A stretch of DNA of 64,000 bases from a virus. Its lineage: Duplodnaviria; Heunggongvirae; Uroviricota; Caudoviricetes. The stretch is taken from the IMG/VR virus record IMGVR_UViG_3300045988_154997, positions 32,001-96,000 of that record, one strand, 5' to 3'. The notes beneath the pieces were generated by a model. It was not told the origin of the DNA. It searched no databases and saw nothing but the letters and a program-made list of their open reading frames with translations. The position numbers and the translations under genes were made by a program. Below are positions 3,441 to 23,879 of this stretch, in pieces (within the stretch, counting starts at the first letter, position 1; every line of letters begins with the position of its first letter).

Positions 3441-5549
3441 TCACTTCAAAATGATACGAGATAGTTCAGTAACTACAGATGAACCAAGACTATCAACGCT
3501 CGTTACCAGGGCATGGTTTGCGTAAAATCTCTCCGGTGCGTCAGTCATGATGCCAATTGCCATCAAATCAATGTCAGTCTGCGTTTCAATTTGCTTCGCA
3601 ACCGAACGCAAATGAGCGTCAAAACCTCTCCCAACAGCCCACGGCGCGCCATCGCTTAGAACAAGCATGATCTTCTTGTCCTCCATGCGACCAGAAAATA
3701 ACGATGCAAGGCTGGCTATGCTTTCACCATCCACGTTATTAAGAAGTGGGAATGTGTAGCCTACGCACCCCATACGTGAGCGAACTTCGCGAGAATTGGC
3801 CTTTTCATTCCAATTTTTGATGATAGGTAGCATTAAAGATTCAAAGCGAGAGAACTCATACTTGATTGCCTTAAGCTCTCCTGCTGCCATATGACTACCA
3901 AATGTTGTGAAGCCGGTGATAATGTTGGGAACATTTATTCGATCAAGCGCATCGGCGATGGTATATGCACTTGCAAGAGCCAGTTTAATCGTTTCGCCGC
4001 TCATTGAACCTGATAAATCAATCACTTGTTGAACACAGGCGTTAACGGCCTTAGATTCTTCTTTTTTACGAAACACGCGATCATCATTCATTGCTAATCT
4101 GTAGATACTAGAACCATGAATGCGCCCCCGACGCTGGCCCGGTATAAACTGAACTCTGTTTCTGCTTGCAATTGCACGCTCCAGGTCTTTTGCCAGCGTC
4201 GACGAAACACCTGACGAAAGATGCTTTTCAATATATTTGTCGAAGAGTTGGTTGCCTTCAGGAACGATGCGATAACGGCTGATTGGATATCCACCTAAAT
4301 CAATATCGGAGAATGTTTTAATAAGCCGTTTGATATGGGCTTCTGCCTGATCAATCGAACCGATGAAGTCGTATGAGCGATTGTATGGCCTGTATTCGCT
4401 TTTCGAGCTTTCTGTTAACTCGCTTTTAATCGTTTCGGATAGTGCATCTTCTGTCATGCCTCCGACTTCATCTTCCATGCTATCAAGCTCCTCTAAAGCC
4501 TCTTCCAGACTCATTTTGGACGGAGTGGGAATGTCTGAAGAGCCGTCTTCTGCCGTTTTTCTTTTTTCGTGATCCGAGGTAGTTGCTTCTGTCGTCGCGC
4601 TATTGGAAGTATCAGAATCTAATACCTCTTTATCATTTTTTGTATCATCGAATATTGTTTCTGATGATTCAGAATTATCTGAATCATCACTATCGTTATT
4701 ATCATGTATGTACTTACCTTGTGACTCATCATCTATAGATATGTGGTTATCTAGCATCTCATGTGTCTTGTGATCTTCATTGTCTTCATTACTTTCTCCA
4801 GAGGAATCCGCTTGGTCAGCGTCTGAAGGATCGGGAGTTTTTCCCGGAGCTGACTCCTTACCTTTGCTTTCACTTTCAGTGTCTTTGAGGATCTTAGCTA
4901 TGGTCGCAGCCACCTTTACACAATCCTCGGTGCAGGACATGTTACGCGCGGCCACATCGATACCATGTTTTTTTAATAATGAAATTGGTTTCTCAATGAC
5001 AGGCCAGTATTCATCCATGAAATCTACGAACGGTGCTTGGCCATCCCAGGCTCTTACAACCGGACAGAGAAAGAAGTTTAGAAAAAGCGCGCGCTGATCT
5101 TTGCCACAATAAGCAATAGCCTCTGAAGCCTTTGGTTTAAAGACTTTTTCGATTATAAGGCGCTGAGTTGCCATCAGATTACGTCTTGTTCCGTTAAAGA
5201 CCTGACCCATTTTTCGCTCGATGAACACGTCTTCTAAGGCATTCCATAGCGACCAGGAAGGAACGCGTCCTTTTTCTCTCATTTTGTTGGACACACGAAT
5301 ATCGGTAAACAAAATGTGAGCAACCTCATGATCGAGAAATCCGCGCACAGCATTCATCAATGCCGGTGTTGCGTTATCCGGGATTGATGGGATGTTTACG
5401 AGAATTGGCTCTCCATCATCGTTATAGCGTACATAAGCGTCGTCCCCTCGTTCTGCAACAGGGATGTTTTTACCTGAAAGGAGAGCGACTACTCGTTTTA
5501 CACTGTCACGGAAGTCCTGAACCTCTTTGATGGAACGTTTTTTAGACAT
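3441..5549 (-). CDS. von Willebrand factor A domain protein, CobT-like partner of the AAA+ ATPase
   Basis: MIDAS-like motif VIDLSGSMSGE near the C-terminal third; long acidic Asp/Ser/Glu-rich low-complexity linker; 702 aa. Confidence 0.65.
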   Translation of the reverse strand: MSKKRSIKEVQDFRDSVKRVVALLSGKNIPVAERGDDAYVRYNDDGEPILVNIPSIPDNATPALMNAVRGFLDHEVAHILFTDIRVSNKMREKGRVPSWSLWNALEDVFIERKMGQVFNGTRRNLMATQRLIIEKVFKPKASEAIAYCGKDQRALFLNFFLCPVVRAWDGQAPFVDFMDEYWPVIEKPISLLKKHGIDVAARNMSCTEDCVKVAATIAKILKDTESESKGKESAPGKTPDPSDADQADSSGESNEDNEDHKTHEMLDNHISIDDESQGKYIHDNNDSDDSDNSESSETIFDDTKNDKEVLDSDTSNSATTEATTSDHEKRKTAEDGSSDIPTPSKMSLEEALEELDSMEDEVGGMTEDALSETIKSELTESSKSEYRPYNRSYDFIGSIDQAEAHIKRLIKTFSDIDLGGYPISRYRIVPEGNQLFDKYIEKHLSSGVSSTLAKDLERAIASRNRVQFIPGQRRGRIHGSSIYRLAMNDDRVFRKKEESKAVNACVQQVIDLSGSMSGETIKLALASAYTIADALDRINVPNIITGFTTFGSHMAAGELKAIKYEFSRFESLMLPIIKNWNEKANSREVRSRMGCVGYTFPLLNNVDGESIASLASLFSGRMEDKKIMLVLSDGAPWAVGRGFDAHLRSVAKQIETQTDIDLMAIGIMTDAPERFYANHALVTSVDSLGSSVVTELSRIILK

Positions 5550-6111: not shown

Positions 6112-6498
6112 ATGTCTGATAACAAGATTGAATTTATAGAAAGTCGCTACGCTGCTTTTATCGCAGGGTTGATTGAATCCTCACCTATGAGCCAGGCCCA
6201 GATAGCCAAAACAATTGGGTATAAAAACGCCAACAACCTTTCTTTAATTAAAAGCGGCAAAATTCCTTTGCCTATCGATAAGGTTCGTCCGCTGGCGCTG
6301 GCACTGGGTATTGAGCCAAGTCGTCTTATGATGATGGTGCTGGAAGAACGCCAACCCGAACTCGCAGCATTTTTATACAAAGAAGGCACTGCTCCTCTTA
6401 ACGAGGACGAAAAACAGGTTCTTGCTGCATATAACGAGCGATTCGGTAAAGAGAAAGGCGCATCACAAAAGGTTGTTGAGGCCATAAAGTCTCTATGA
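6112..6498 (+). CDS. HTH (Cro/CI-type) DNA-binding protein
   Basis: SQAQIAKTIGYKNANNLSLIKSGK resembles an XRE-type helix-turn-helix; ATG at 6112 with AAGG RBS preferred over the track's GTG at 6106. Confidence 0.5.
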   Translation: MSDNKIEFIESRYAAFIAGLIESSPMSQAQIAKTIGYKNANNLSLIKSGKIPLPIDKVRPLALALGIEPSRLMMMVLEERQPELAAFLYKEGTAPLNEDEKQVLAAYNERFGKEKGASQKVVEAIKSL

Positions 6499-7596
6499 AA
6501 AATTTACACGAATAAGCTCTGTTGATAGACGATCTCCCTTAAATTTGTGGTCAATTTCGTCTAAATCCGGTTGCTCTACGATTGATGCGATGTACGTCGA
6601 GAAACTTTCTAAGGCGTCTCGCATCTCGTCCATATAATCGTGCCGGTCGTAGACCCGATCTATCCCCTCAAGACTGTGGTTCATGATTTTACGTGATACC
6701 TCCTGGCTTATGCCTAATGCTGGGAAGTAACTACGCGCAGTACGGCGCAAATCTCGGGGTGTAAATGGCTCAAGCTCCATCAGTTCTGGTCGTTCCAGAA
6801 TACGACGTAATGCCTGGGCTATTGCCACTTTAGACATAGGAAGGTCTTTCCCGATTTTTTTATTCGAAGGCACGAGCCACTGGCTGTCTTTACCATATTC
6901 GAACAACTCTTCAATACATGTGCGCATTAATGAGCTTAAAGGCAGAGAATGCTCACGGGCAGATTTGTTCCTCTTGCCTTGATTCCAAACCCCACGCTTA
7001 AGATTGAACTCACTTTTTTTAGCCCGCAGTACTTCGTCAGGTCGTCTTGCGGATACAAGACATAGCCTGGCCGCCCATTTTGTACCAGCACACACATTGA
7101 AGTAGTCCCATATATTCCAGAACACCCATACCTCTGCGTCGGTCAGCTTCCGCTCGCGAGGTGTGGGCTTTGCGCCACCGGCAACTTTGTTAAGTGACAT
7201 ATCGTTTAACGGTGACACGTCGATCATCCCCTGGAAGGCGCACCAGCTGAGGAACTGCTTCATCAGAGAGAAAACGCGGCGACCCATAACAATTTTGCCA
7301 TCCAGTATTAGTGGGTTGACCAGTTGGTTCACCATGAACCTATTAATATCACTTACTTTTACATCGGCAATGTGCGGCAAAACATGTATCAAAATACAAT
7401 GAACAGCGATCTCTGGCCGACGTCTTGTTATCAGCAGAGATAAGCGAGTGAATAACATGAATGCGTCCGAGAATCTCATGTCATTGCTGACCTGGGAGAT
7501 CATAACGGCCTGCATTTGAGATGCTCTTTCGAGATACTCAATCGCCTCTTTTGAGGTGTTCTCCGCAGCGCGTGCTCTGTCAAAGCTATTTTTCAT
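6493..7596 (-). CDS. int: tyrosine site-specific recombinase (integrase/resolvase family)
   Basis: C-terminal catalytic signature DLRRTARS ... NHSLEGIDRVYDRHDY (R..T.R / H / R..Y pattern of tyrosine recombinases); 367 aa. Confidence 0.75.
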   Translation of the reverse strand: MKNSFDRARAAENTSKEAIEYLERASQMQAVMISQVSNDMRFSDAFMLFTRLSLLITRRRPEIAVHCILIHVLPHIADVKVSDINRFMVNQLVNPLILDGKIVMGRRVFSLMKQFLSWCAFQGMIDVSPLNDMSLNKVAGGAKPTPRERKLTDAEVWVFWNIWDYFNVCAGTKWAARLCLVSARRPDEVLRAKKSEFNLKRGVWNQGKRNKSAREHSLPLSSLMRTCIEELFEYGKDSQWLVPSNKKIGKDLPMSKVAIAQALRRILERPELMELEPFTPRDLRRTARSYFPALGISQEVSRKIMNHSLEGIDRVYDRHDYMDEMRDALESFSTYIASIVEQPDLDEIDHKFKGDRLSTELIRVNFS

Positions 7597-7694
7597 ATGA
7601 CAATCACCGAGTTACGCCGATGCACTGTATAAGTAAACAGTATATTAGGCATAGATTCTTATAGGATCAAGAGTAAAAGTAACTCATTTTCAGT

Positions 7695-7727
7695 AATGAT
7701 TCCATACATAGTAGGTATGGAATCATT
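7695..7727. repeat. lox/dif-like recombination core candidate: 13-bp inverted repeats around a 7-bp spacer
   Basis: AATGATTCCATAC-atagtag-GTATGGAATCATT, perfect arms, about 100 bp from the recombinase start codon. Confidence 0.5.
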
Positions 7728-7804
7728 GGGGGGCGATTTTTTTGAATCTATCTTTTCGAACGGAGGGGTTGGCTTCACTTTTATCTTCATCACCTAAAAG
7801 GTAA

Positions 7805-8794
7805 TTGATTTACTTGAAAATGGCTGGTTTTATAGTATTGTCATGCGATCGCTGCAACAGGATAAGAAAAATGATAAAAGAGACACCGGAAGTCAACACG
7901 CTATCTGAGTTATTAGGGGCTACGCCTCCCAAACCTCAGCTAGTAGTGACGACTAAAGGTATTGATTTAGGTCTGGATATCTCCCTCGGAGATTGGAATA
8001 ACTCTTCATTATTATCACGACCTTCAGCTTTGTTAGCAATTGAGCATGGGGAAAATTTATTTGAACTCATGGATAAAGAGTTAGGTCTTGTTGGTATTAA
8101 TGAAGAAGGAGTGATCAAGTCAAACATCATTATCGAACTAGATCCCCATAAAACAACTATGAGAATATTAGGTAAAATTGCGGAAGCACTCATTGTTGAA
8201 GAATGTGAAAAAAACGCGAAACAAAATGAAAACTGGGCATTATTAGCAAAGAGATATACCCCTTTCACAGATAGTTTGTCTAATTATAAAGCTGTTGGGA
8301 CTGGACTCAACTATACGAAAATTAACTATCCTACTAAATATCAACCTAATGATACTCAACGGGACATTGTGTGGATAGACAAACGAGACCCACTTTCTCA
8401 ATTACTTATTTCTGCTCCAACGTCGAATTCAGGTATACAGGCTGGAATTCAAGTGAAGGTCAGTGCAAATGGTCTTAACTATCTATCACCAATGGATTTT
8501 TCTAGCAGAAGATATGAGGTCCCTATTGTTTACTTTGATTTAAATAATGATTTTTTTGAAATTCAGATGAAGATAGTGAACTCAGGAATTGATTCGGTTT
8601 ATGGAATGGATTATCACCGTGGTAGAAACATTTCTCCTGAAATACATGAAAAACTATGTGCATATTATAACCTTATATACTCCATTATCATTGGTGATAT
8701 GAAATTAGAGGCTCTGTTACTAAATGAAGAGGCACTGAAAGGGTATGTGACTGAGATTAAAGATAGACAAGGTAAAAGAATAATCGTGACGTGA
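7805..8794 (+). CDS. hypothetical protein (329 aa), AT-rich cargo gene
   Basis: Long ORF in a roughly 35-38% GC segment; no recognisable motif; true start may be an internal Met. Confidence 0.5.
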   Translation: MIYLKMAGFIVLSCDRCNRIRKMIKETPEVNTLSELLGATPPKPQLVVTTKGIDLGLDISLGDWNNSSLLSRPSALLAIEHGENLFELMDKELGLVGINEEGVIKSNIIIELDPHKTTMRILGKIAEALIVEECEKNAKQNENWALLAKRYTPFTDSLSNYKAVGTGLNYTKINYPTKYQPNDTQRDIVWIDKRDPLSQLLISAPTSNSGIQAGIQVKVSANGLNYLSPMDFSSRRYEVPIVYFDLNNDFFEIQMKIVNSGIDSVYGMDYHRGRNISPEIHEKLCAYYNLIYSIIIGDMKLEALLLNEEALKGYVTEIKDRQGKRIIVT

Positions 8795-8986
8795 AAACCT
8801 AAACTGTAAAGGCAACAAAAGGTGAAATAATAACTCATTAAAAGCACATTGTGTGAAATTTTAATCTGATAATTCATATATCGGAAGGGATTTTAGATAT
8901 TTTTAATATTTATAACTGTCCTTTTCATAGATATAGTTGATTTGAGCGCACACTTTCATGTAAAAAGCCGCCTAAGCGGCTCTTAA

Positions 8987-9232
8987 TTATAATGTACTCA
9001 CCAGAGCGGCGAATTCCGTATAGCCACCGATAGATTCGCCATTTACGAACACCTGCGGTATGGTCTCCACCGGCTTGCCAACCAGGGCGCTCAATTTCTC
9101 TTTGTCTATCCCAGCAGACACAATATCGATGTATTCGTAATCGCCAAAACCGTGACCGTGAAGCTGCTTCGCCAGCTCGACCGCACGTTTGCAGTATGAG
9201 CAGTTATCTCGTCCATAGATAGTGATCGTCAT
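8987..9232 (-). CDS. glutaredoxin-like protein
   Basis: 81 aa; N-terminal MTITIYGRDNCSYCKRA with a CxxC redox motif (CSYC) and overall glutaredoxin/NrdH-like layout. Confidence 0.75.
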   Translation of the reverse strand: MTITIYGRDNCSYCKRAVELAKQLHGHGFGDYEYIDIVSAGIDKEKLSALVGKPVETIPQVFVNGESIGGYTEFAALVSTL

Positions 9233-9372
9233 TGCTTTGCCTCGTTATGCGCTTCGCTGGGGAACGTGTAGCGGTTAGTGAAAGAGCTGAGGTGGTAGTG
9301 CTCGTGAATGTATGGATTTGACTTCTGCACCTGACGAGATGCGCGACGCGCATGTTTACATTTATTTCCCAT
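9229..9372 (-). CDS. small hypothetical protein (47 aa), translationally coupled to the glutaredoxin gene
   Basis: Internal ATG at 9372 preceded by GAAAGGA RBS; stop overlaps the glutaredoxin start (ATGA). The longer track ORF would start inside the conserved intergenic motif. Confidence 0.3.
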   Translation of the reverse strand: MGNKCKHARRASRQVQKSNPYIHEHYHLSSFTNRYTFPSEAHNEAKQ

Positions 9373-9428
9373 ATTGAGTCCTTTCAAGTGAGTATCCGAA
9401 AGAACTATACAGTTAACGTGCGTAAAAA

Positions 9429-9448
9429 GTAAGTGCTTACCTATCATT
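9429..9448. promoter_or_regulatory. recurrent intergenic motif GTAAGTGCTTACCTATCATT (palindromic core GTAAG-TG-CTTAC)
   Basis: Exact 13-mer CTTACCTATCATT also at 15558-15570 and 27927-27939; sits in the divergent region between the glutaredoxin operon and the 273-aa gene. Confidence 0.5.
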
Positions 9449-9521
9449 TATTGATAGAAGAATAGCCGCCTGTCGTGTGATACTATTTACAGAACTAAAC
9501 TGGCTTTCCACAAGGTGTAAA

Positions 9522-10343
9522 ATGACTATCCTTGAAAATCCTGATGCGAATGTTGAATCTGTTTATAGTCTTCATCCAACCACGTTGTTTCATTTTACAA
9601 AAAACGAAGATGCTTTCTATAGCATATTGGCTGAGAAATATTTTAAACCATTTCTTGCTCGCGAGGAAATAAGAGGAGTCGGGGGACGCAGGAGGTTTGC
9701 AGTACCAATGGTATCGTTTTGTGACATAAAACTATCACAAATCAGAGATCATAGCGGAAAATATGGAGAATTCGGTCTTGGGCTAACTAAGTCTTGGGCG
9801 GAAAAGAAAGGTCTACACCCAGTTCTATATATGAATAAGAGTAGTGAAATATTTTCTAAATACAATGCCAGAATTCGACTTATTAAAAATAAGTTGGTGC
9901 CGCTTTGGAAGGCTAGAGGAAATTTAGATACCAAAAACAGAATAGAGTTTGAGAAATTGAAAGCAGAATATTCTGATCTATATAATTTACTGCGTTATAT
10001 GAAAAATTACAGAGGCAAGCTAGAGCGAAAAGATAATAAAACAATAGAGAATTATATATATGCAGACGAGAAAGAGTGGCGTTATGTGCCAGCTCCTTTT
10101 ATTGGTGATTTATGGCCTAGTCTGAGTTTGGAGCGTGTTATCACTTCTGATGACAAAGCAAAAATTAGCTCAAAATTTTCAAAGTTTGGCATTGATTTTG
10201 AGTTCAATGATATAAAATATATACTTATACCTAAAGAACAACATATCCAAAAGCTAATTAACTTTCTCTCAGGTTTAGATGGATTTGAATCTTCAATTAT
10301 TAGCAAAATTCTGACCATGGATAAAGTAAAGCAAGATTTTTAA
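9522..10343 (+). CDS. DUF2971/Abi-like protein (tentative family assignment)
   Basis: ATG at 9522 with AAGGTG RBS. Motifs LFHFTK...FYSIL, FAVPMVSFCD...HSGKYGEFGLGL and C-terminal EKEWRYV echo the LYKY / MWSHY..HKGFCIGF / E.EWR pattern of the DUF2971-like protein at 23116-23835. AT-rich. Confidence 0.45.
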   Translation: MTILENPDANVESVYSLHPTTLFHFTKNEDAFYSILAEKYFKPFLAREEIRGVGGRRRFAVPMVSFCDIKLSQIRDHSGKYGEFGLGLTKSWAEKKGLHPVLYMNKSSEIFSKYNARIRLIKNKLVPLWKARGNLDTKNRIEFEKLKAEYSDLYNLLRYMKNYRGKLERKDNKTIENYIYADEKEWRYVPAPFIGDLWPSLSLERVITSDDKAKISSKFSKFGIDFEFNDIKYILIPKEQHIQKLINFLSGLDGFESSIISKILTMDKVKQDF

Positions 10344-10369
10344 TTTTTGGTTTAACGGGAGCCTAATTA

Positions 10370-11581
10370 GTGTCAATATTTTTAAGCGAAAAGGAAATGC
10401 AAAATTGGATAATTGACAAATTATCTGATCAAGATGGATTATATAATTCAATCATCAATATTGATAAATTAAATGAATTTAATCCGAAAAGACCCGAAGA
10501 GAAAAAAATTAAGGAGAGTTATCAGTTTTGTTTAAAGAACATAACATTGTTACATTTAATGACAGATGATGAGAATATCTCAGCAACAAAATCTGAGATA
10601 TTAAGACCTGATGTCGTTGCTTATTCAACAGAGAATGAATCCTTAGTTCTTATTGAGTTAAAAAATTTTTCAACACCAACAAGGGAAGCTGGAACTGAGC
10701 TAGTGGCATATGCTGCGGAACTAAAAAGTTACTTGTCATACTTGTCTGATGGAGATATTACCAATGTACTTATATCACCTGACTGGCCACCTTTGGTTAG
10801 ACACTTTATTTTTAATATGATCGTGTGGCAGAAGAAAAACTTTCTATGTTTAGAACCTTGCTATGATTTACAAGGTAACGTATCACTTACTCCTTTAGAT
10901 ATTAATAAATTAGTTATTGCGGAAGAAGCACTCAAGTTCTCATTTCGTCATCTTGGCGGGTTTCATATATGTTTGTATGATGATGAAATGTATAATCAAC
11001 CGACTTCCACTTCTCGTTTACATTCGAAATTGAATGTTATTAAAGCCAGCATGGCAAAAATGTCCTCAGACGGTGAAAAGACTAATAGCCATGGGTTTGC
11101 TATTTTATGTAGAAATTTGAACGAGAGAACTTTAGCACCATATACGATTACTCTAGTTAATGTTTCTGCGTTTTCTTCCATAGAGCGATACTTTCATTCG
11201 CCACAAATATCCAATGCTTCTCAACTCCCTAGAATAGGACAAAAAATTTATGACATTTACACTCATTACCAACCATCAGGTTTTGGGGCATCAATGTCGA
11301 AAATTTACAATTCTGGGAGGGCATATTTAGAAAAAATTAATTGCAAGCCGCGGATCGAGGTTATAGACACCTGGGATGTATTGCAAGTACATACACATGC
11401 GCCTTATATGGAAATGGTTCATATTGAAACGTGGGGAGTTTTTAAAGAAAAATTGATTGAAGGTCTAAATGAATGTTATGAGGATGAATATTACACACCT
11501 GATTTTAACGATGTAGATTTTTGCATGGTGTGTATTGAATCCTTAATTGACCAGAATTATGAATTTATAAAACTTTTTTGA
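10370..11581 (+). CDS. PD-(D/E)xK nuclease-like protein with unknown C-terminal domain
   Basis: N-terminal ILRPDVVAYSTENESLVLIELKNFS fits a D ... E-x-K restriction-endonuclease-fold signature; GTG start at 10370 with GGGAG RBS; 403 aa; about 33% GC. Confidence 0.5.
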   Translation: MSIFLSEKEMQNWIIDKLSDQDGLYNSIINIDKLNEFNPKRPEEKKIKESYQFCLKNITLLHLMTDDENISATKSEILRPDVVAYSTENESLVLIELKNFSTPTREAGTELVAYAAELKSYLSYLSDGDITNVLISPDWPPLVRHFIFNMIVWQKKNFLCLEPCYDLQGNVSLTPLDINKLVIAEEALKFSFRHLGGFHICLYDDEMYNQPTSTSRLHSKLNVIKASMAKMSSDGEKTNSHGFAILCRNLNERTLAPYTITLVNVSAFSSIERYFHSPQISNASQLPRIGQKIYDIYTHYQPSGFGASMSKIYNSGRAYLEKINCKPRIEVIDTWDVLQVHTHAPYMEMVHIETWGVFKEKLIEGLNECYEDEYYTPDFNDVDFCMVCIESLIDQNYEFIKLF

Positions 11582-11584
11582 AGA

Positions 11585-11604
11585 AAAGGGGCCGAAGCCC
11601 CTTT
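11585..11604. terminator. stem-loop AAAGGGGC-cgaa-GCCCCTTT, probable intrinsic terminator, likely bidirectional
   Basis: Directly after the stop at 11579-11581; on the minus strand it is followed by TTTTCTTC, so it also ends the tRNA transcript. Confidence 0.55.
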
Positions 11605-11680
11605 GAATATTGCGCTGAAAAAAAGTGTTGCTAGGATGTTAGCAAGCTATGGTTAAGAACGTCTGCCGTAATTGTCAATC

Positions 11681-11758
11681 ACAGCGTTGAGCGGTCTGGT
11701 TTATGTTAGCGGAGTCTTAATCGAGTTGATTAAAAGGCCAAACCGCTCAACGCTGTGT
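11681..11758. repeat. 16-bp perfect inverted repeat (CACAGCGTTGAGCGGT / ACCGCTCAACGCTGTG) forming a long hairpin abutting the tRNA-Ser 3' end
   Basis: Read directly; arms separated by 46 nt. Confidence 0.6.
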
Positions 11759-11759
11759 C

Positions 11760-11846
11760 TGGCGGAGAGTAATGGAATCGAACCATCATCGTTTGCACAA
11801 TGGGACGATTTTCAAGACCGCTTGAGCACCATGCTCCCTACTCTCC
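11760..11846 (-). tRNA. tRNA-Ser (anticodon TGA), type II with long variable arm, CCA encoded
   Basis: Minus-strand sequence GGAGAGT...CGGTCTTGAAAATCG...GGTTCGATTCC...ACTCTCCGCCA: 7-bp acceptor stem, anticodon loop CTTGAAA, T-loop TTCGATT. Confidence 0.7.
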
Positions 11847-12070
11847 GGCCGTTGTGGTGGCCGGTACTGAATCTCCGGCATACGGTGCAGCCAATTAGGA
11901 CTACGGACGATCACCGCTCGCGAAAGGGAAGATTTGCGGCCGCATTTCCCTAACATCCAAGAAAGCTATCGCATCAGTCTGCGAATCCACCACAACGGTA
12001 AGATCACTACCTTTCGACCAGTCATTGTGCACATGAACGACGATTAACCGTAATGATCTTATCGTTGTAT

Positions 12071-12147
12071 TGGTGCCGGTTAACGGACTCGAACCGCTGA
12101 CATCCTGCTTACAAGGCAGGCGCTCTACCAACTGAGCTAAACCGGCA
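12071..12147 (-). tRNA. tRNA-Thr (anticodon TGT), CCA encoded
   Basis: TGCCGGT-TT-AGCTCAGTTGGTAGAGC-G-CCTGC-CTTGTAA-GCAGG-ATGTC-AGCGG-TTCGAGT-CCGTT-AACCGGCA-CCA; canonical cloverleaf. Confidence 0.85.
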
Positions 12148-12150
12148 ATT

Positions 12151-12237
12151 TGGTGGGGAGTGATGGAGTCGAACCACCCGAGTCGCAATGACAGTAGATT
12201 TACAGTCTGTCCCGCTACCTCTACGGACTAACTCCCC
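12151..12237 (-). tRNA. tRNA-Tyr (anticodon GTA), type II, CCA encoded; two non-canonical pairs in the anticodon stem
   Basis: Anticodon arm and variable arm AGACTGTAAATCT.C.GTCAT closely resemble E. coli tRNA-Tyr as recalled from memory; acceptor GGGGAGT/ACTCCCC; T-loop TTCGACT. Confidence 0.65.
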
Positions 12238-12242
12238 TAAAT

Positions 12243-12317
12243 TGGCGATGGTGGGTGGATTCGAACCACCGACCAGTTGGTTAACAGCCAACTGCTCTAC
12301 CGCTGAGCTACACCATC
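12243..12317 (-). tRNA. tRNA-Asn (anticodon GTT), CCA encoded
   Basis: GATGGTG-TA-GCTC-AGCGGTA-GAGC-A-GTTGG-CTGTTAA-CCAAC-TGGTC-GGTGG-TTCGAAT-CCACC-CACCATC-G-CCA. Confidence 0.85.
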
Positions 12318-21876: not shown

Positions 21877-23073
21877 TTAAACATCTTTTAGAAAGCCTGG
21901 AAACCAATGTTTCATGATATACCTAAAATGTGCTCTAGTTGGTTCAAAAACCTGTCTAGATACCAGCGCTCCATCAGGATGATTCTGAACAGACTGTTCT
22001 TTTTCCATATCGTAAAAATTATGAGTTATCTCTGGGGGGAAGAAAATATTTCTGTCCAGTGGCACTGTCGCAAAAGGATTGTAGTAAATATGAAGGCCGT
22101 CAAAGTGCGTCTCTTCATGAGCAGTGGAATGGCAAACTACAATATCCGCACCAGTGACTTCGTTATTTAAAAAATGCCGATATGTAGTGATGAAATGATC
22201 AGGACCTATCCTTTGTGTGTGCTTTCCCTCGTTTTTCATCCCTTCATTGGCGATGAAATCATTCACATCAATGGCTCGATATCGTGTTGACCTTACATAT
22301 CTACCGATACCGCTTTGAACCACGGCTTTTCCAAAAGTGCCGGTGGTGGAGAAAATAACCGCACTTATTTCTTTATATGAGTCGTTAGTAAATATACCTA
22401 ATGGAATTTCAACGTCTTCATTCTTTTTGATTGAGGTAACTTTAGTTTGGCTGCCAGTCACCAAATTTCTGGTGGTAGGTTCCTCAATGCCAAACAACAC
22501 TCGATTGATGATTGTGTTATTTTGAGACAATGATAAATCGGAGTCAAAGGGTGCAAGCGCCAGAACAAACGGCTTATTAACTACATGAGACATCGTAGAG
22601 TACGGGAATTTTTTGCCATTAACTCCTGTAAAAAGATCATGTTTGTCTTTGATTTTTCCGATTAATTTTAGCGTTGATTGATGTTTGAATTTTGATTCGC
22701 TAAAAAGAGCACCTGCAGGTGGATTATGTGGCCGATCTGATATCACAGCTTCGACGTTAAACTGGTAGCCTGACGGTGTAGTAACACAGAAATCGGGACT
22801 GTCTTTTGTGTAGTCGACAGAATAATCGAGACGAATAAACATTTCGTTCAGATACAATTCCCATAAGGCGGAATTGAAGGTTGTCTGAAACTCTTTAACG
22901 AATTTAGTCTGCTCACCGCTACGCTCCAGTAACCCACGCCCCCACGACTGTATCACTTCTCTTACTGGAGCATATGTATTATCTTGATAAATCTGTTTAA
23001 AAGATTCGTGCAGCTTGTTTTTTGCTATTTTGGTTGAGAACAAATCCATTATTAGCCTCACTAACCAGTTCAA
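21877..23073 (-). CDS. hypothetical protein (398 aa), AT-rich
   Basis: ORF only; no recognisable motif; adjacent to the DUF2971-like gene. Confidence 0.5.
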   Translation of the reverse strand: MNWLVRLIMDLFSTKIAKNKLHESFKQIYQDNTYAPVREVIQSWGRGLLERSGEQTKFVKEFQTTFNSALWELYLNEMFIRLDYSVDYTKDSPDFCVTTPSGYQFNVEAVISDRPHNPPAGALFSESKFKHQSTLKLIGKIKDKHDLFTGVNGKKFPYSTMSHVVNKPFVLALAPFDSDLSLSQNNTIINRVLFGIEEPTTRNLVTGSQTKVTSIKKNEDVEIPLGIFTNDSYKEISAVIFSTTGTFGKAVVQSGIGRYVRSTRYRAIDVNDFIANEGMKNEGKHTQRIGPDHFITTYRHFLNNEVTGADIVVCHSTAHEETHFDGLHIYYNPFATVPLDRNIFFPPEITHNFYDMEKEQSVQNHPDGALVSRQVFEPTRAHFRYIMKHWFPGFLKDV

Positions 23074-23115
23074 TAAGAAAAGCGCCCAACATAATCATTT
23101 GAGGAAAGTCTGGAG

Positions 23116-23835
23116 CTACTTCAGCTTTTCTTTGACAAGAAGATAACCATCATCAGGTGTACTCATTTTGTAAACCTCGATGCTCGTGTCTAGCTGTGTC
23201 CGGGCATATTCTTCTACTTCAGGAGAAACGTTATACCCAAGAATGATCTCTCTAATATATTTCTTATCAAATGCCTGAGCGCCTATTTTTTTAGTAATAA
23301 CCCTTTGTTCTTCCTCATATTTCCAGCATTCGTGCTTGTAGAAAAAGAGCTTATCAAAAAGTACCTTAAACTCATCTGTAACTTCATCGAACACGGGAAC
23401 AGAAGGTATATATTTCACATTATCAAAGCTGTGATACCCCTCAATAGAGGTAACAAAATCATCATCAAAGCCTATGCAGAAACCTTTATGCGACACTGAG
23501 TAATGTGACCACATCAAGATGTTATCTTCGTTTGGTGACAAGCACACCACACCAAAAGCCCCTAATGATTCTTTCCGCAAATCCACAGCCAACGATTTTG
23601 CAGCTTCAGGAGCTACAGCATCCCAGTCTTCAAAGGAAAAATCCTTACATCCATTGTCTTCAAAGTGTTTCCGGCGCTCCACTTCTGTACCTCCCATCGT
23701 TATCGAAACTTTGAACTCTGATGGGTCGTTGAATGAAGAAGGTGCGCTAGCAGAGATAGTGCCGTCCTCTACAAACCGTTTGAGGTTACGTAACACTTTT
23801 TGCGAATCTTCACTTCCAATATATTTGTAGAGCAT
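23116..23835 (-). CDS. DUF2971-family protein
   Basis: From the ATG at 23835: MLYKYIGSEDSQKVL...SFNDPSEF, ILMWSHYSVSHKGFCIGFD, ECWKYEEEQRV, the signature pattern I recall for DUF2971. Track start at 23874 is a TTG. Confidence 0.55.
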   Translation of the reverse strand: MLYKYIGSEDSQKVLRNLKRFVEDGTISASAPSSFNDPSEFKVSITMGGTEVERRKHFEDNGCKDFSFEDWDAVAPEAAKSLAVDLRKESLGAFGVVCLSPNEDNILMWSHYSVSHKGFCIGFDDDFVTSIEGYHSFDNVKYIPSVPVFDEVTDEFKVLFDKLFFYKHECWKYEEEQRVITKKIGAQAFDKKYIREIILGYNVSPEVEEYARTQLDTSIEVYKMSTPDDGYLLVKEKLK

Positions 23836-23879
23836 TAGGGAACCTATAGAAAGAGGTGCCAAGCAGCACCTCAATAAAA

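What the first reader, a model, noticed from the sequence alone, without database searches (positions are those of the whole stretch)
7805..11581. AT-rich cargo islet between the recombinase and the tRNA cluster: unknown 329-aa protein, DUF2971/Abi-like protein and PD-(D/E)xK nuclease-like protein
Three plus-strand genes at about 33-38% GC (by eye) sit inside a minus-strand phage backbone at about 50% GC. They are bracketed by a tyrosine recombinase with a lox-like site on one side and a hairpin terminator plus four tRNA genes on the other. The 273-aa product carries motifs that echo the DUF2971-like protein at 23116-23835. The 403-aa product starts with a D...E-x-K restriction-endonuclease-fold signature followed by about 250 aa of unassigned sequence, the shape of a sensor-plus-nuclease effector. 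This is the best candidate in the window for an uncharacterised phage-borne defence, anti-defence or exclusion module.
Basis: partly seen in the sequence, partly recalled or inferred. Interest (0 to 1): 0.75.

Follow-up and report, generated by a model that had tools for sequence, protein, structure and literature searches.

The report
Two cargo hotspots with candidate defence nucleases
This AT-rich stretch of an E. coli SSU5-like phage-plasmid is two neighbouring swap-in slots that hold three separately mobile accessory genes: a restriction-enzyme-like protein, a lone AbiGi-family protein and a new nuclease-plus-unknown-domain protein. They are probably anti-phage genes of the ordinary "defence hotspot" kind, and none has been tested.

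Summary
They are split by a conserved, GC-normal minus-strand grxA and a phoH remnant.

- **Slot A** (about 7728-8986) carries P1 (7871-8794, 307 aa).
- **Slot B** (about 9449-11584) carries P2 (9522-10343, 273 aa) and P3 (10370-11581, 403 aa).
- **Composition and distribution:** The three genes have 33-36% GC against a window mean of 45.7%. About 724 related plasmids share grxA. Only 18 carry P2+P3 and 6 carry P1.
- **Cargo in relatives:** These slots hold YafO toxin modules, a type I R-M system, other unknown genes, or nothing.
- **P2** is an AbiGi-family protein, not DUF2971. It has no AbiGii partner.
- **P1** has no family hit. It has an E...D...QxK motif. One relative sits behind two C5-methylase genes, and another is fused to a C5 methylase.
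- **Independence:** Each family occurs alone elsewhere, in P2-like prophage int-att ends, ICEs, prophage ends and defence islands. In Klebsiella relatives AbiGi sits in slot B without P3.

Best reading: three independent single-gene modules that are probably defence or exclusion genes. Function is inferred, not shown.

The parts
6493..7596 (-). Tyrosine recombinase (backbone, left flank of slot A)
   Evidence: Pfam Phage_integrase 2.9e-10. Annotated as site-specific integrase in the identical plasmid NZ_CP100547.1. Conserved in all relatives examined.
7695..7727 (.).
   Evidence: Seen in the sequence and as inverted repeat I3, 94% complementary. Homology to relatives with other or no cargo ends at 7727-7750. 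Its function as a recombinase site is not tested.
7728..8986 (.). Variable slot A (recombinase | grxA)
   Evidence: Boundaries come from blastn against seven relatives. Content elsewhere: empty (L003, L004, L063), YafO toxin plus a hypothetical (L002, L060, L064), antitoxin plus type I R-M hsdMSR (L065), other hypotheticals (L059, L061, L062), and a diverged P1-like gene (L058).
7871..8794 (+). P1, 307 aa: uncharacterised family, probable PD-(D/E)xK-type restriction-endonuclease-like protein, solitary here
8966..8981 (.). GC hairpin between P1 and grxA (right edge of slot A)
   Evidence: Terminator-like site AGCCGC-CTAA-GCGGCT. Homology to relatives resumes at 8978-9006.
8987..9232 (-). grxA glutaredoxin: conserved backbone gene that splits the 'islet'
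   Evidence: NCBIfam GrxA equivalog 5.8e-32, above its cutoff. GC 0.496. tblastn matches in 727 plasmid records, 724 of them nearly full length.
9229..9447 (-). 72-codon ORF containing a phoH 5' remnant
   Evidence: Window 9317-9410 matches DNA annotated as phoH in Klebsiella and E. coli relatives. It aligns to the 5' end of phoH and the phoH-AbiGi intergenic region in L049/L050. RefSeq annotates only 9229-9372 as a hypothetical protein.
9449..11584 (.). Variable slot B (grxA/phoH remnant | hairpin + tRNA cluster)
   Evidence: Boundaries. Content elsewhere: AbiGi alone (L049/L050), two unrelated minus-strand genes of 262 and 193 aa (L004, L063), a 302-aa gene (L062), several hypotheticals (L061, L065), and almost nothing in phage Cyrano.
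9522..10343 (+). P2, 273 aa: AbiGi-family protein without an AbiGii partner
   Evidence: Pfam AbiGi 4.8e-25 (89 bits, cutoff 22.4), PADLOC AbiGi 5.3e-47, phrog_13416 2.7e-119. NCBIfam AbiGI equivalog scores only 52 bits against a cutoff of 300. Close homologues stand alone.
10370..11581 (+). P3, 403 aa: new family with an N-terminal PD-(D/E)xK nuclease domain (about residues 40-155) and about 250 aa of unassigned alpha/beta domains
11588..11601 (.). GC hairpin GGGGC-CGAA-GCCCC flanked by an A-run and a T-run (right edge of slot B)
   Evidence: Read from the sequence. It is conserved in relatives from 11573/11584 onward whatever the cargo. The scan tool did not call it.
11760..12317 (-). tRNA-Ser, Thr, Tyr, Asn cluster (backbone, right flank)
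   Evidence: ARAGORN and Rfam.

Best explanation
**What is shown**
- The region is a pair of adjacent accessory-gene hotspots in the backbone of an SSU5-like phage-plasmid of E. coli.
- One lies between the tyrosine recombinase and grxA. The other lies between grxA and the tRNA cluster.
- They hold three AT-rich, horizontally acquired genes, and each gene behaves as an independently mobile single-gene module.
- P3 was added to, or lost from, a pre-existing AbiGi cassette. In Klebsiella relatives the AbiGi stop codon is followed directly by the conserved hairpin and tRNA-Ser.

**What is inferred (function)**
- All three most likely protect the lysogen, and so the plasmid-prophage, against other phages or mobile DNA.
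- P1 is a restriction-endonuclease-like DNA nuclease of the PD-(D/E)xK type, with an E...D...QxK motif. Its relatives can serve as the R part of m5C restriction-modification units. Here it is solitary.
- P2 is a lone AbiGi-family protein. That family takes part in abortive infection in Lactococcus.
- P3 is a stand-alone nuclease. Its N-terminal RecB/YhcG-like PD-(D/E)xK domain would cut nucleic acid. The conserved C-terminal two-domain region would hold it inactive or target it until a phage cue appears.
For: **Hotspot structure**
- The window is 100% identical to plasmid pLH09-a-C.
- The cargo genes have 33-36% GC against 45.7% for the window.
- Homology breakpoints are sharp, at the palindrome, the two hairpins and the phoH remnant.
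- grxA is found in 724 plasmids, P2+P3 in 18 and P1 in 6. Among 5426 complete E. coli genomes, 210 have a match to the region (in most of them only the grxA/phoH backbone), 7 carry the full cargo and 12 more carry P2+P3, always on plasmids.
- The same slots hold YafO modules, a type I R-M system, other unknown genes or nothing.

**Independence**
- P3 homologues in 34 genomes of many phyla have no AbiGi neighbour.
- P3 homologues at 52% and 44% identity are the last gene after int in P2/186-like prophages. That position is described as a minor P2 defence hotspot (PMC13586616). Another homologue is ICE cargo.
- AbiGi homologues at 58-71% identity, and 15 further viral loci, are all solo.
- P1 homologues have no conserved neighbour among 93 neighbour clusters.

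**Defence context**
- P3 neighbours include Cas1, type I and IIG R-M, AbiEii, AriA, mads and PDC-S05.
- P1 neighbours include GmrSD, DarT, AbiU2 and SIR2.

**Nuclease assignments**
- P3.
- P1.
Against: - No experiment or expression data exist for any of the three genes.
- Promoter-like sites are no more frequent than in shuffled sequence.
- P1's methylase association is seen in only 2 cases out of more than 100 contexts.
- P2 and P3 are only 26 nt apart, with no hairpin between them, and have nearly identical composition. A functional pairing in this lineage is therefore not excluded.
- A solitary active restriction-like nuclease should be toxic. There is no C5 methylase in the 64-kb window, so P1's mode of self-protection is unexplained.
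- The mechanism of AbiG is unknown even in Lactococcus (PMC13064643).
Confidence: 0.6

Rival explanations
1. P2 and P3 form one two-gene abortive-infection system, a variant of AbiG. AbiGi would be the sensor or regulator. The AbiGii component would be replaced by a PD-(D/E)xK nuclease effector.
For: - The genes are on the same strand with a 26-nt gap. P3 has its own RBS, there is no hairpin between them, and one hairpin follows P3.
- GC and GC3 are nearly identical.
- All 18 plasmids with P3 also have AbiGi upstream.
- P3 (403 aa) is close in length to lactococcal AbiGii, which I recall as about 397 aa (from memory, not checked here).
- An AbiGi domain fused to an HNH nuclease exists (P0191). 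This shows that AbiGi can be coupled to a nuclease.
Against: - The pairing is seen only in one near-clonal E. coli plasmid lineage, at >= 95.7% identity.
- P3 relatives lack AbiGi in all 34 genome loci and in the three further homologue contexts examined (P0002, P0009, P0022).
- AbiGi relatives lack any conserved partner in 18 contexts. One of these is the same slot in Klebsiella plasmids, where the AbiGi stop is followed directly by the conserved hairpin.
Confidence: 0.2
2. The genes act as addiction or post-segregational-killing modules that stabilise the plasmid-prophage rather than defend against phages. P2 would be the 'AbiGi antitoxin' for a P3 nuclease toxin. Alternatively, P1 would be a restriction nuclease whose protection depends on a methylase.
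For: - Pfam and RefSeq label AbiGi an antitoxin.
- The same slot carries YafO toxin modules in relatives.
- P1 relatives occur with C5 methylases.
Against: - P3 homologues are widespread without AbiGi or any conserved neighbour, so P3 cannot be an unconditional toxin.
- AbiGi is usually alone.
- No methylase lies near P1, and no C5 methylase is present in the window.
Confidence: 0.08
3. P3, and possibly P1, is a selfish free-standing homing-type endonuclease gene. It would have inserted into an intergenic site and would give the host or plasmid no benefit.
For: - P3 is a precise 1.24-kb extra segment between the AbiGi stop and the conserved hairpin, relative to Klebsiella plasmids.
- P3 homologues sit tightly after int in P2-like prophages.
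- It has a nuclease domain.
Against: - About 250 conserved non-nuclease residues with invariant positions argue for a regulated or targeted enzyme.
- The family is spread over chromosomes of many phyla in unrelated contexts, often defence islands, rather than between conserved phage genes.
- tblastn found no match in 50,697 GenBank phage records, although P3 does match PHROGs family phrog_30092.
Confidence: 0.06
4. The genes serve the phage's own life cycle or counter-defence, for example host DNA degradation during lytic growth or destruction of host defence nucleic acids, rather than exclusion of competitors.
For: - They are carried by a phage-plasmid next to nucleotide-metabolism and tRNA genes.
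- Nucleases are common phage take-over tools (general knowledge).
Against: - They are absent from more than 97% of related elements, so they are dispensable for the life cycle.
- Homologues also sit in ICEs, small plasmids and chromosomal islands that have no lytic cycle.
Confidence: 0.06

Closest known systems
Lactococcal AbiG (AbiGi + AbiGii, plasmid pCI750)
   Same: P2 is a clear AbiGi-family member (Pfam above cutoff, PADLOC 5e-47). It is carried on a mobile element, and a gene of about 400 aa follows it on the same strand.
   Different: - P3 gave no AbiGii hit: PADLOC returned no family at all at E <= 1, and Pfam returned only weak HSDR_N matches. It has a PD-(D/E)xK nuclease domain instead.
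- P2 is far below the NCBIfam AbiGI equivalog cutoff, 52 against 300 bits.
- Close P2 relatives are solo genes.
- The AbiG mechanism itself is unknown. [quoted passage not shown]
Defence hotspots of temperate phages and satellites (P2 old/tin loci, P4 hotspot, P2 int-att region)
   Same: Slots between conserved genes have sharp boundaries. The content is AT-rich and swappable, and mixes known systems (type I R-M, toxin modules) with unknown genes. P3 homologues occupy the P2 int-att hotspot described in PMC13586616.
   Different: This is an SSU5-like phage-plasmid backbone. I found no paper describing these two slots. No anti-phage phenotype has been measured for this cargo.
Stand-alone PD-(D/E)xK nucleases with accessory domains (NucS/EndoMS, FokI cleavage domain, Can2/Card1, type I HsdR N-terminal and YhcG-type domains)
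   Same: The P3 N-domain has the fold and the invariant D...ExK catalytic triad, followed by an E-x3-Y motif.
   Different: P3 has no CARF, helicase, methylase or known DNA-binding domain. The C-terminal 250 aa match only generic ferredoxin-like folds. No Pfam family is reached at its cutoff, and there is no PDB sequence relative.
Type II restriction endonucleases of m5C R-M systems (for example the AgeI/NgoMIV D...(E/S/Q)xK group)
   Different: In the window, and in nearly all other contexts, there is no methylase next to P1. The fold match is not significant. No sequence family link exists.

Membership tests
AbiG abortive-infection system | An AbiGi-family protein | tested here: met
   Pfam PF10899 at 89.1 bits (cutoff 22.4) and PADLOC AbiGi 5.3e-47 over the full model. 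It is not an equivalog of lactococcal AbiGI, scoring 52 bits in NCBIfam against a cutoff of 300.
AbiG abortive-infection system | An adjacent AbiGii-family partner | tested here: not met
   P3 gave no AbiGii hit: PADLOC returned no family at E <= 1, and Pfam returned only weak HSDR_N_2/HSDR_N matches. Its family members match only PD-(D/E)xK models, weakly.
AbiG abortive-infection system | Abortive-infection phenotype that needs both genes | not testable with these tools
   This needs cloning and phage challenge.
PD-(D/E)xK nuclease superfamily (P3) | Conserved catalytic D ... (D/E)-x-K motif | tested here: met
   P80-D81, E96 and K98 are invariant in 38 sequences at 32-52% identity.
PD-(D/E)xK nuclease superfamily (P3) | Alpha-beta-beta-beta-alpha-beta core fold | tested here: met
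PD-(D/E)xK nuclease superfamily (P3) | Membership of a curated Pfam nuclease family above its cutoff | tested here: not met
   For the window protein the best hit is HSDR_N_2 at 16.7 bits against a cutoff of 25. YhcG_C and BsuBI_PstI_RE appear only as weak matches in some family members (best E-values 1.6e-4 and 2.5e-3).
PD-(D/E)xK nuclease superfamily (P1) | Catalytic motif on the expected elements | tested here: met
   E105 lies in a helix, D165 at the start of a strand, and Q194-x-K196 in the next long strand. All are invariant in 49 sequences.
PD-(D/E)xK nuclease superfamily (P1) | Significant structural match to known members | tested here: inconclusive
Type II restriction-modification system (P1 as R subunit) | Cognate DNA methyltransferase encoded next to it or on the same element | tested here: not met
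   No methylase lies in slot A. tblastn finds no C5 methylase anywhere in the 64-kb window. The feature is met only in relatives: L079 (two C5 methylases upstream) and the P0281 fusion.
   P2 has no PF11185 hit at E <= 1. BLASTP gives E 3.3. hhalign of an AbiGi profile against the DUF2971 ORF gives probability 0.6%.
Mobile-element defence/accessory hotspot | Variable gene content between conserved flanking genes across related elements | tested here: met
Mobile-element defence/accessory hotspot | Known defence systems occupy the same slot in relatives | tested here: met
   Slot A of K. oxytoca plasmid NZ_CP138770.1 holds type I R-M hsdM/S/R. YafO toxin modules occupy slot A in several others. 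AbiGi alone occupies slot B of Klebsiella plasmids.
Mobile-element defence/accessory hotspot | Measured anti-phage activity of the cargo | not testable with these tools
   This needs an experiment.

The most novel reading that the evidence does not exclude
AbiGi is a portable sensor or adaptor module that can be wired to different nuclease effectors: AbiGii in Lactococcus, a fused HNH nuclease in P0191, and here the PD-(D/E)xK protein P3. On this reading the P2-P3 pair is a newly assembled two-gene abortive-infection system, caught just after its formation in one E. coli phage-plasmid lineage.
Probability: 0.2. Interest if true: 0.65.

Novelty: new member of a known kind. Interest (0 to 1): 0.45.

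Why it matters
SSU5-like phage-plasmids are common in clinical and livestock Enterobacteriaceae. A grxA-bearing SSU5-like plasmid is present in 210 of 5426 complete E. coli genomes. Mapping their two cargo slots, with sharp boundaries, gives a place to look for new immunity genes, as was done for P2 and P4. P3 and P1 are compact, widely scattered nuclease families that no current domain or defence database recognises. If they protect against phages they would add two single-gene systems. P1 would also pose the question of how a restriction-like nuclease is tolerated without its methylase. The solo AbiGi genes show that the current rule "AbiG = AbiGi + AbiGii" misses most of this family.

Tried and rejected
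- **One three-gene operon.** Rejected. Conserved grxA on the other strand splits the region, and the three genes have different distributions among relatives.
- **P2 is DUF2971-like.** Rejected.
- **P3 is a diverged AbiGii.** No support from Pfam or PADLOC.
- **A conserved partner for P3.** Scanned 121 neighbours in 34 genomes and found none.
- **A conserved partner for P1.** Scanned 93 neighbour clusters from 108 loci and found none. A methylase is adjacent in only one locus.
- **Solved-structure relatives by sequence profile.** None for P1, P2 or P3.
- **Foldseek of P1 against the PDB.** Nothing. The AFDB library was not available.
- **Literature search by RefSeq accession.** Nothing.
- **Flanking direct repeats that would mark transposition of the cassettes.** None convincing.
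- **Rfam.** Only the tRNAs.
- **Promoter scan.** No enrichment over shuffles.
- **GenBank phage collection.** No P2 or P3 relatives and only three for P1.

Full report
**What the window is**

The stretch 7600-11700 is 100% identical to E. coli plasmid pLH09-a-C (NZ_CP100547.1, 111 kb, non-mobilizable). It shares flanks with hundreds of plasmids of about 110 kb from Klebsiella, Escherichia, Enterobacter and Salmonella, and with phages such as Cyrano. S. Typhi pHCM2 is among the relatives. From my own knowledge this is the SSU5-like phage-plasmid group.

**Checking the observation**

The three plus-strand ORFs exist.
- GC is 0.360 for P1, 0.339 for P2 and 0.333 for P3, with GC3 0.28-0.29. The window mean is 0.457. 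These are the only 1-kb windows below 0.36 in the 64 kb.
- The recombinase (6493-7596, minus strand), a 33-bp palindrome (7695-7727), a GC hairpin right after the P3 stop (11588-11601) and four tRNA genes (11760-12317) are all present.

- A conserved minus-strand grxA (8987-9232, GC 0.496; NCBIfam GrxA equivalog 5.8e-32) lies between the first gene and the other two.
- A 72-codon ORF next to grxA carries the 5' end of a deleted phoH gene.

The first ORF is better read as 307 aa from ATG 7871 than as 329 aa from TTG 7805.

**Two slots, not one islet**

I compared the window by blastn with seven relatives that carry different cargo. Homology stops at 7727-7750, just past the palindrome. It resumes at 8978-9006, at the grxA hairpin. 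It stops again at about 9449 and resumes at 11573-11584, just before the hairpin and tRNA-Ser.

Slot A, between the recombinase and grxA, holds the following in relatives:
- nothing in three E. coli plasmids;
- a YafO toxin plus a small gene in E. coli, Enterobacter and Klebsiella plasmids;
- an antitoxin plus a complete type I R-M system in a K. oxytoca plasmid;
- unrelated hypothetical genes in Cyrano, pHCM2 and pRHB14-C15_3;
- a diverged P1-like gene in Enterobacter pCP102.

Slot B, between grxA and the tRNAs, is equally variable.

grxA is found at nearly full length in 724 plasmid records. P3 is in 18 of them, always with AbiGi, and P1 is in 6. Among 5426 complete E. coli genomes, 210 have a match to the region (mostly only the grxA/phoH backbone), 7 have the full cargo and 12 more have P2+P3. 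None of these is chromosomal.

**P2 (9522-10343)**

P2 is an AbiGi-family protein: Pfam 4.8e-25, PADLOC 5.3e-47 over the whole model, phrog_13416. It is not an equivalog of lactococcal AbiGI (52 bits against a cutoff of 300) and it is not DUF2971.

The ORF at 23116-23835 does match DUF2971 (1.2e-6). It shows no similarity to P2 by BLASTP or by profile comparison (probability 0.6%).

A 2026 review states three things about AbiG. It is a two-component system of unknown mechanism. [quoted passage not shown] Neither of its proteins has a fold match (PMC13064643).

Close relatives of P2 are solo genes.
- A 64%-identical copy sits in slot B of Klebsiella plasmids with nothing after it.
- A 58% copy is the last gene of a prophage.
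- A 71% copy lies next to caspase-like and STAND genes.
- Fifteen further viral loci have no same-strand partner. The one candidate was an integrase.
- One relative is fused to an HNH nuclease.

**P3 (10370-11581)**

P3 belongs to a small family of 54 clusters. All are 390-433 aa and none has a Pfam domain. The alignment shows two groups of invariant positions.
- N-terminal: P80-D81, E96-x-K98, then R105, G108-T109-E110 and Y114. I read this as a D...ExK...ExxxY pattern like RecB/YhcG-type nucleases.
- C-terminal: C160, Y203-D204, G242-F243, E330 and W355-G356.

**P3 travels alone**

In 34 genomes from Proteobacteria, Bacteroidota, Planctomycetota and others, no AbiGi gene lies nearby, and no neighbour is conserved among 121 examined. 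The neighbours include the following:
- integrases and transposases;
- Cas1 and Cas7;
- type I and IIG R-M;
- AbiEii, AriA, mads proteins and PDC-S05.

The closest relatives sit in mobile elements.
- Those at 52% and 44% identity are the last gene after int in P2/186-like prophages. A 2026 study lists the int-att region of P2 as a minor defence hotspot (PMC13586616).
- Another relative is cargo of an integrative conjugative element.

In Klebsiella plasmids the AbiGi stop is followed within 15 nt by the sequence that follows P3 in the window. P3 plus a 26-nt spacer is therefore a 1.24-kb addition to, or loss from, an AbiGi cassette.

**P1 (7871-8794)**

P1 has no hit in Pfam, PADLOC, PHROGs, NCBIfam or PDB sequences, whether searched alone or through 49 family members. 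An exhaustive profile search found only 234 representatives in 1.84 billion proteins.

The invariant residues are E105, D165 (in DTQRD), Q194-x-K196-x-S198 and Y215/P218. In a model with pLDDT 86 they fall on a helix, the start of a strand and the next long strand. That is the usual layout of a PD-(D/E)xK site.

Context gives a better lead.
- Priestia protein WP_430060227.1 is a C5 cytosine methylase fused to a P1 domain at 39.5% identity.
- In metagenome contig L079 a 43%-identical homologue follows two C5-methylase genes in a tight operon. Two methylases plus one nuclease is, from my own knowledge, the layout of R-M systems with asymmetric sites.

These are the exceptions. Among 93 neighbour clusters from 108 loci there is no conserved partner. 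The neighbours include integrases, GmrSD, DarT, an AbiU2-type HEPN protein and SIR2. The 64-kb window has no C5 methylase.

**Best explanation**

What is shown: two hotspots with sharp boundaries, and three AT-rich cargo genes whose families each move independently.

What is inferred: the genes act against incoming phages or other foreign DNA.
- P3 would be a stand-alone nuclease kept in check or targeted by its C-terminal domains.
- P1 would be a restriction-like nuclease.
- P2 would be a solo AbiGi-family protein.

I put 0.6 on this overall. The structural part is close to certain. The functional part rests on guilt by association and domain content only.

**Rivals**

- *P2+P3 as an AbiG variant with a swapped effector (0.2).* It is supported by the 26-nt spacing, the shared hairpin, the matched composition and the AbiGi-HNH fusion. 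Against it, the pairing exists in only one near-clonal lineage and each gene is usually alone.
- *Addiction or toxin-antitoxin (0.08).* This is unlikely because P3 is widespread without any partner.
- *Homing-type selfish nuclease (0.06)* and *a phage life-cycle or counter-defence role (0.06).* Neither is excluded. Both fit the distribution less well.

**A further speculative idea**

P1's methylase-linked relatives are all m5C-type. E. coli could therefore tolerate a solitary P1 through its own Dcm methylase. I could not test this, and solitary P1 genes also occur in taxa where Dcm is not expected.

**Novelty**

The kind of thing is well known: hotspots in temperate mobile elements filled with defence genes and unknown genes.
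- P1 and P3 appear to be undescribed families within a known superfamily.
- The solo AbiGi subfamily is not captured by the two-gene AbiG definition.
- I found no paper that describes these slots or these proteins.

I rate the finding a new member of a known kind, with moderate interest.

Noticed in passing
window 7695-7727: A 33-bp near-perfect palindrome sits about 100 bp upstream of the recombinase start codon, exactly where homology between plasmids with different slot-A cargo ends. It could be the recombinase's target site, and it could be mechanistically linked to cargo exchange.
   Followed up: partly
window 9229-9447 (minus strand): The 72-codon ORF overlapping the grxA start contains the 5' end of phoH (9317-9410 matches phoH DNA in Klebsiella and E. 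coli relatives). This E. coli lineage has lost phoH, gp49 and a small gene that lie between grxA and the cargo in Enterobacter, Salmonella and Klebsiella plasmids.
   Followed up: partly
window 11847-12064 and 12151-12237: The tRNA array itself varies. The window has Ser, Thr, Tyr and Asn. Phage Cyrano has only Ser, Thr and Asn and lacks the 218-bp spacer after tRNA-Ser, as does plasmid pEC16-2 (L002) by blastn.
   Followed up: no
window 11680-11699 / 11738-11757: A 20-nt inverted repeat (95% complementary, 38 nt between the arms) lies just downstream of tRNA-Ser on the minus strand. Its function is unknown; it may be a processing or termination structure for the tRNA cluster.
   Followed up: no
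window 21877-23874 (minus strand): A second possible cargo pair: a 398-aa ORF with no Pfam hit, directly followed by a DUF2971 protein (PF11185, 1.2e-6). I did not examine its variability among relatives.
   Followed up: no
L079:94-2853 (metagenome contig Ga0256826_1015601): A compact operon of two C5 cytosine methylase genes and a P1 homologue (43% identity to the window protein). It has the layout of an R-M system for an asymmetric site. Priestia aryabhattai WP_430060227.1 fuses a C5 methylase to the same domain.
   Followed up: partly
P0191 (411 aa, Logan assembly): A single protein combines an N-terminal HNH nuclease (PF01844/PF14279) with a C-terminal AbiGi domain. This is the only hint found to what AbiGi domains may be coupled with.
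   Followed up: no
L069-L071 (P0093 contexts): In one gut Firmicutes lineage the P1 homologue is followed by conserved genes of 139 aa and 262 aa with no Pfam hits. The 262-aa gene is interrupted by a transposase in two loci. This may be a lineage-specific multi-gene arrangement.
   Followed up: no
L057 (Acinetobacter plasmid pYH16056-8, 5955 bp) 3713-4630: A P1 homologue (about 43% identity) is one of only seven genes on a 6-kb Acinetobacter plasmid. A gene annotated as ADP-ribosyl hydrolase lies nearby. Several other small Acinetobacter plasmids carry fragments of the gene.
   Followed up: no
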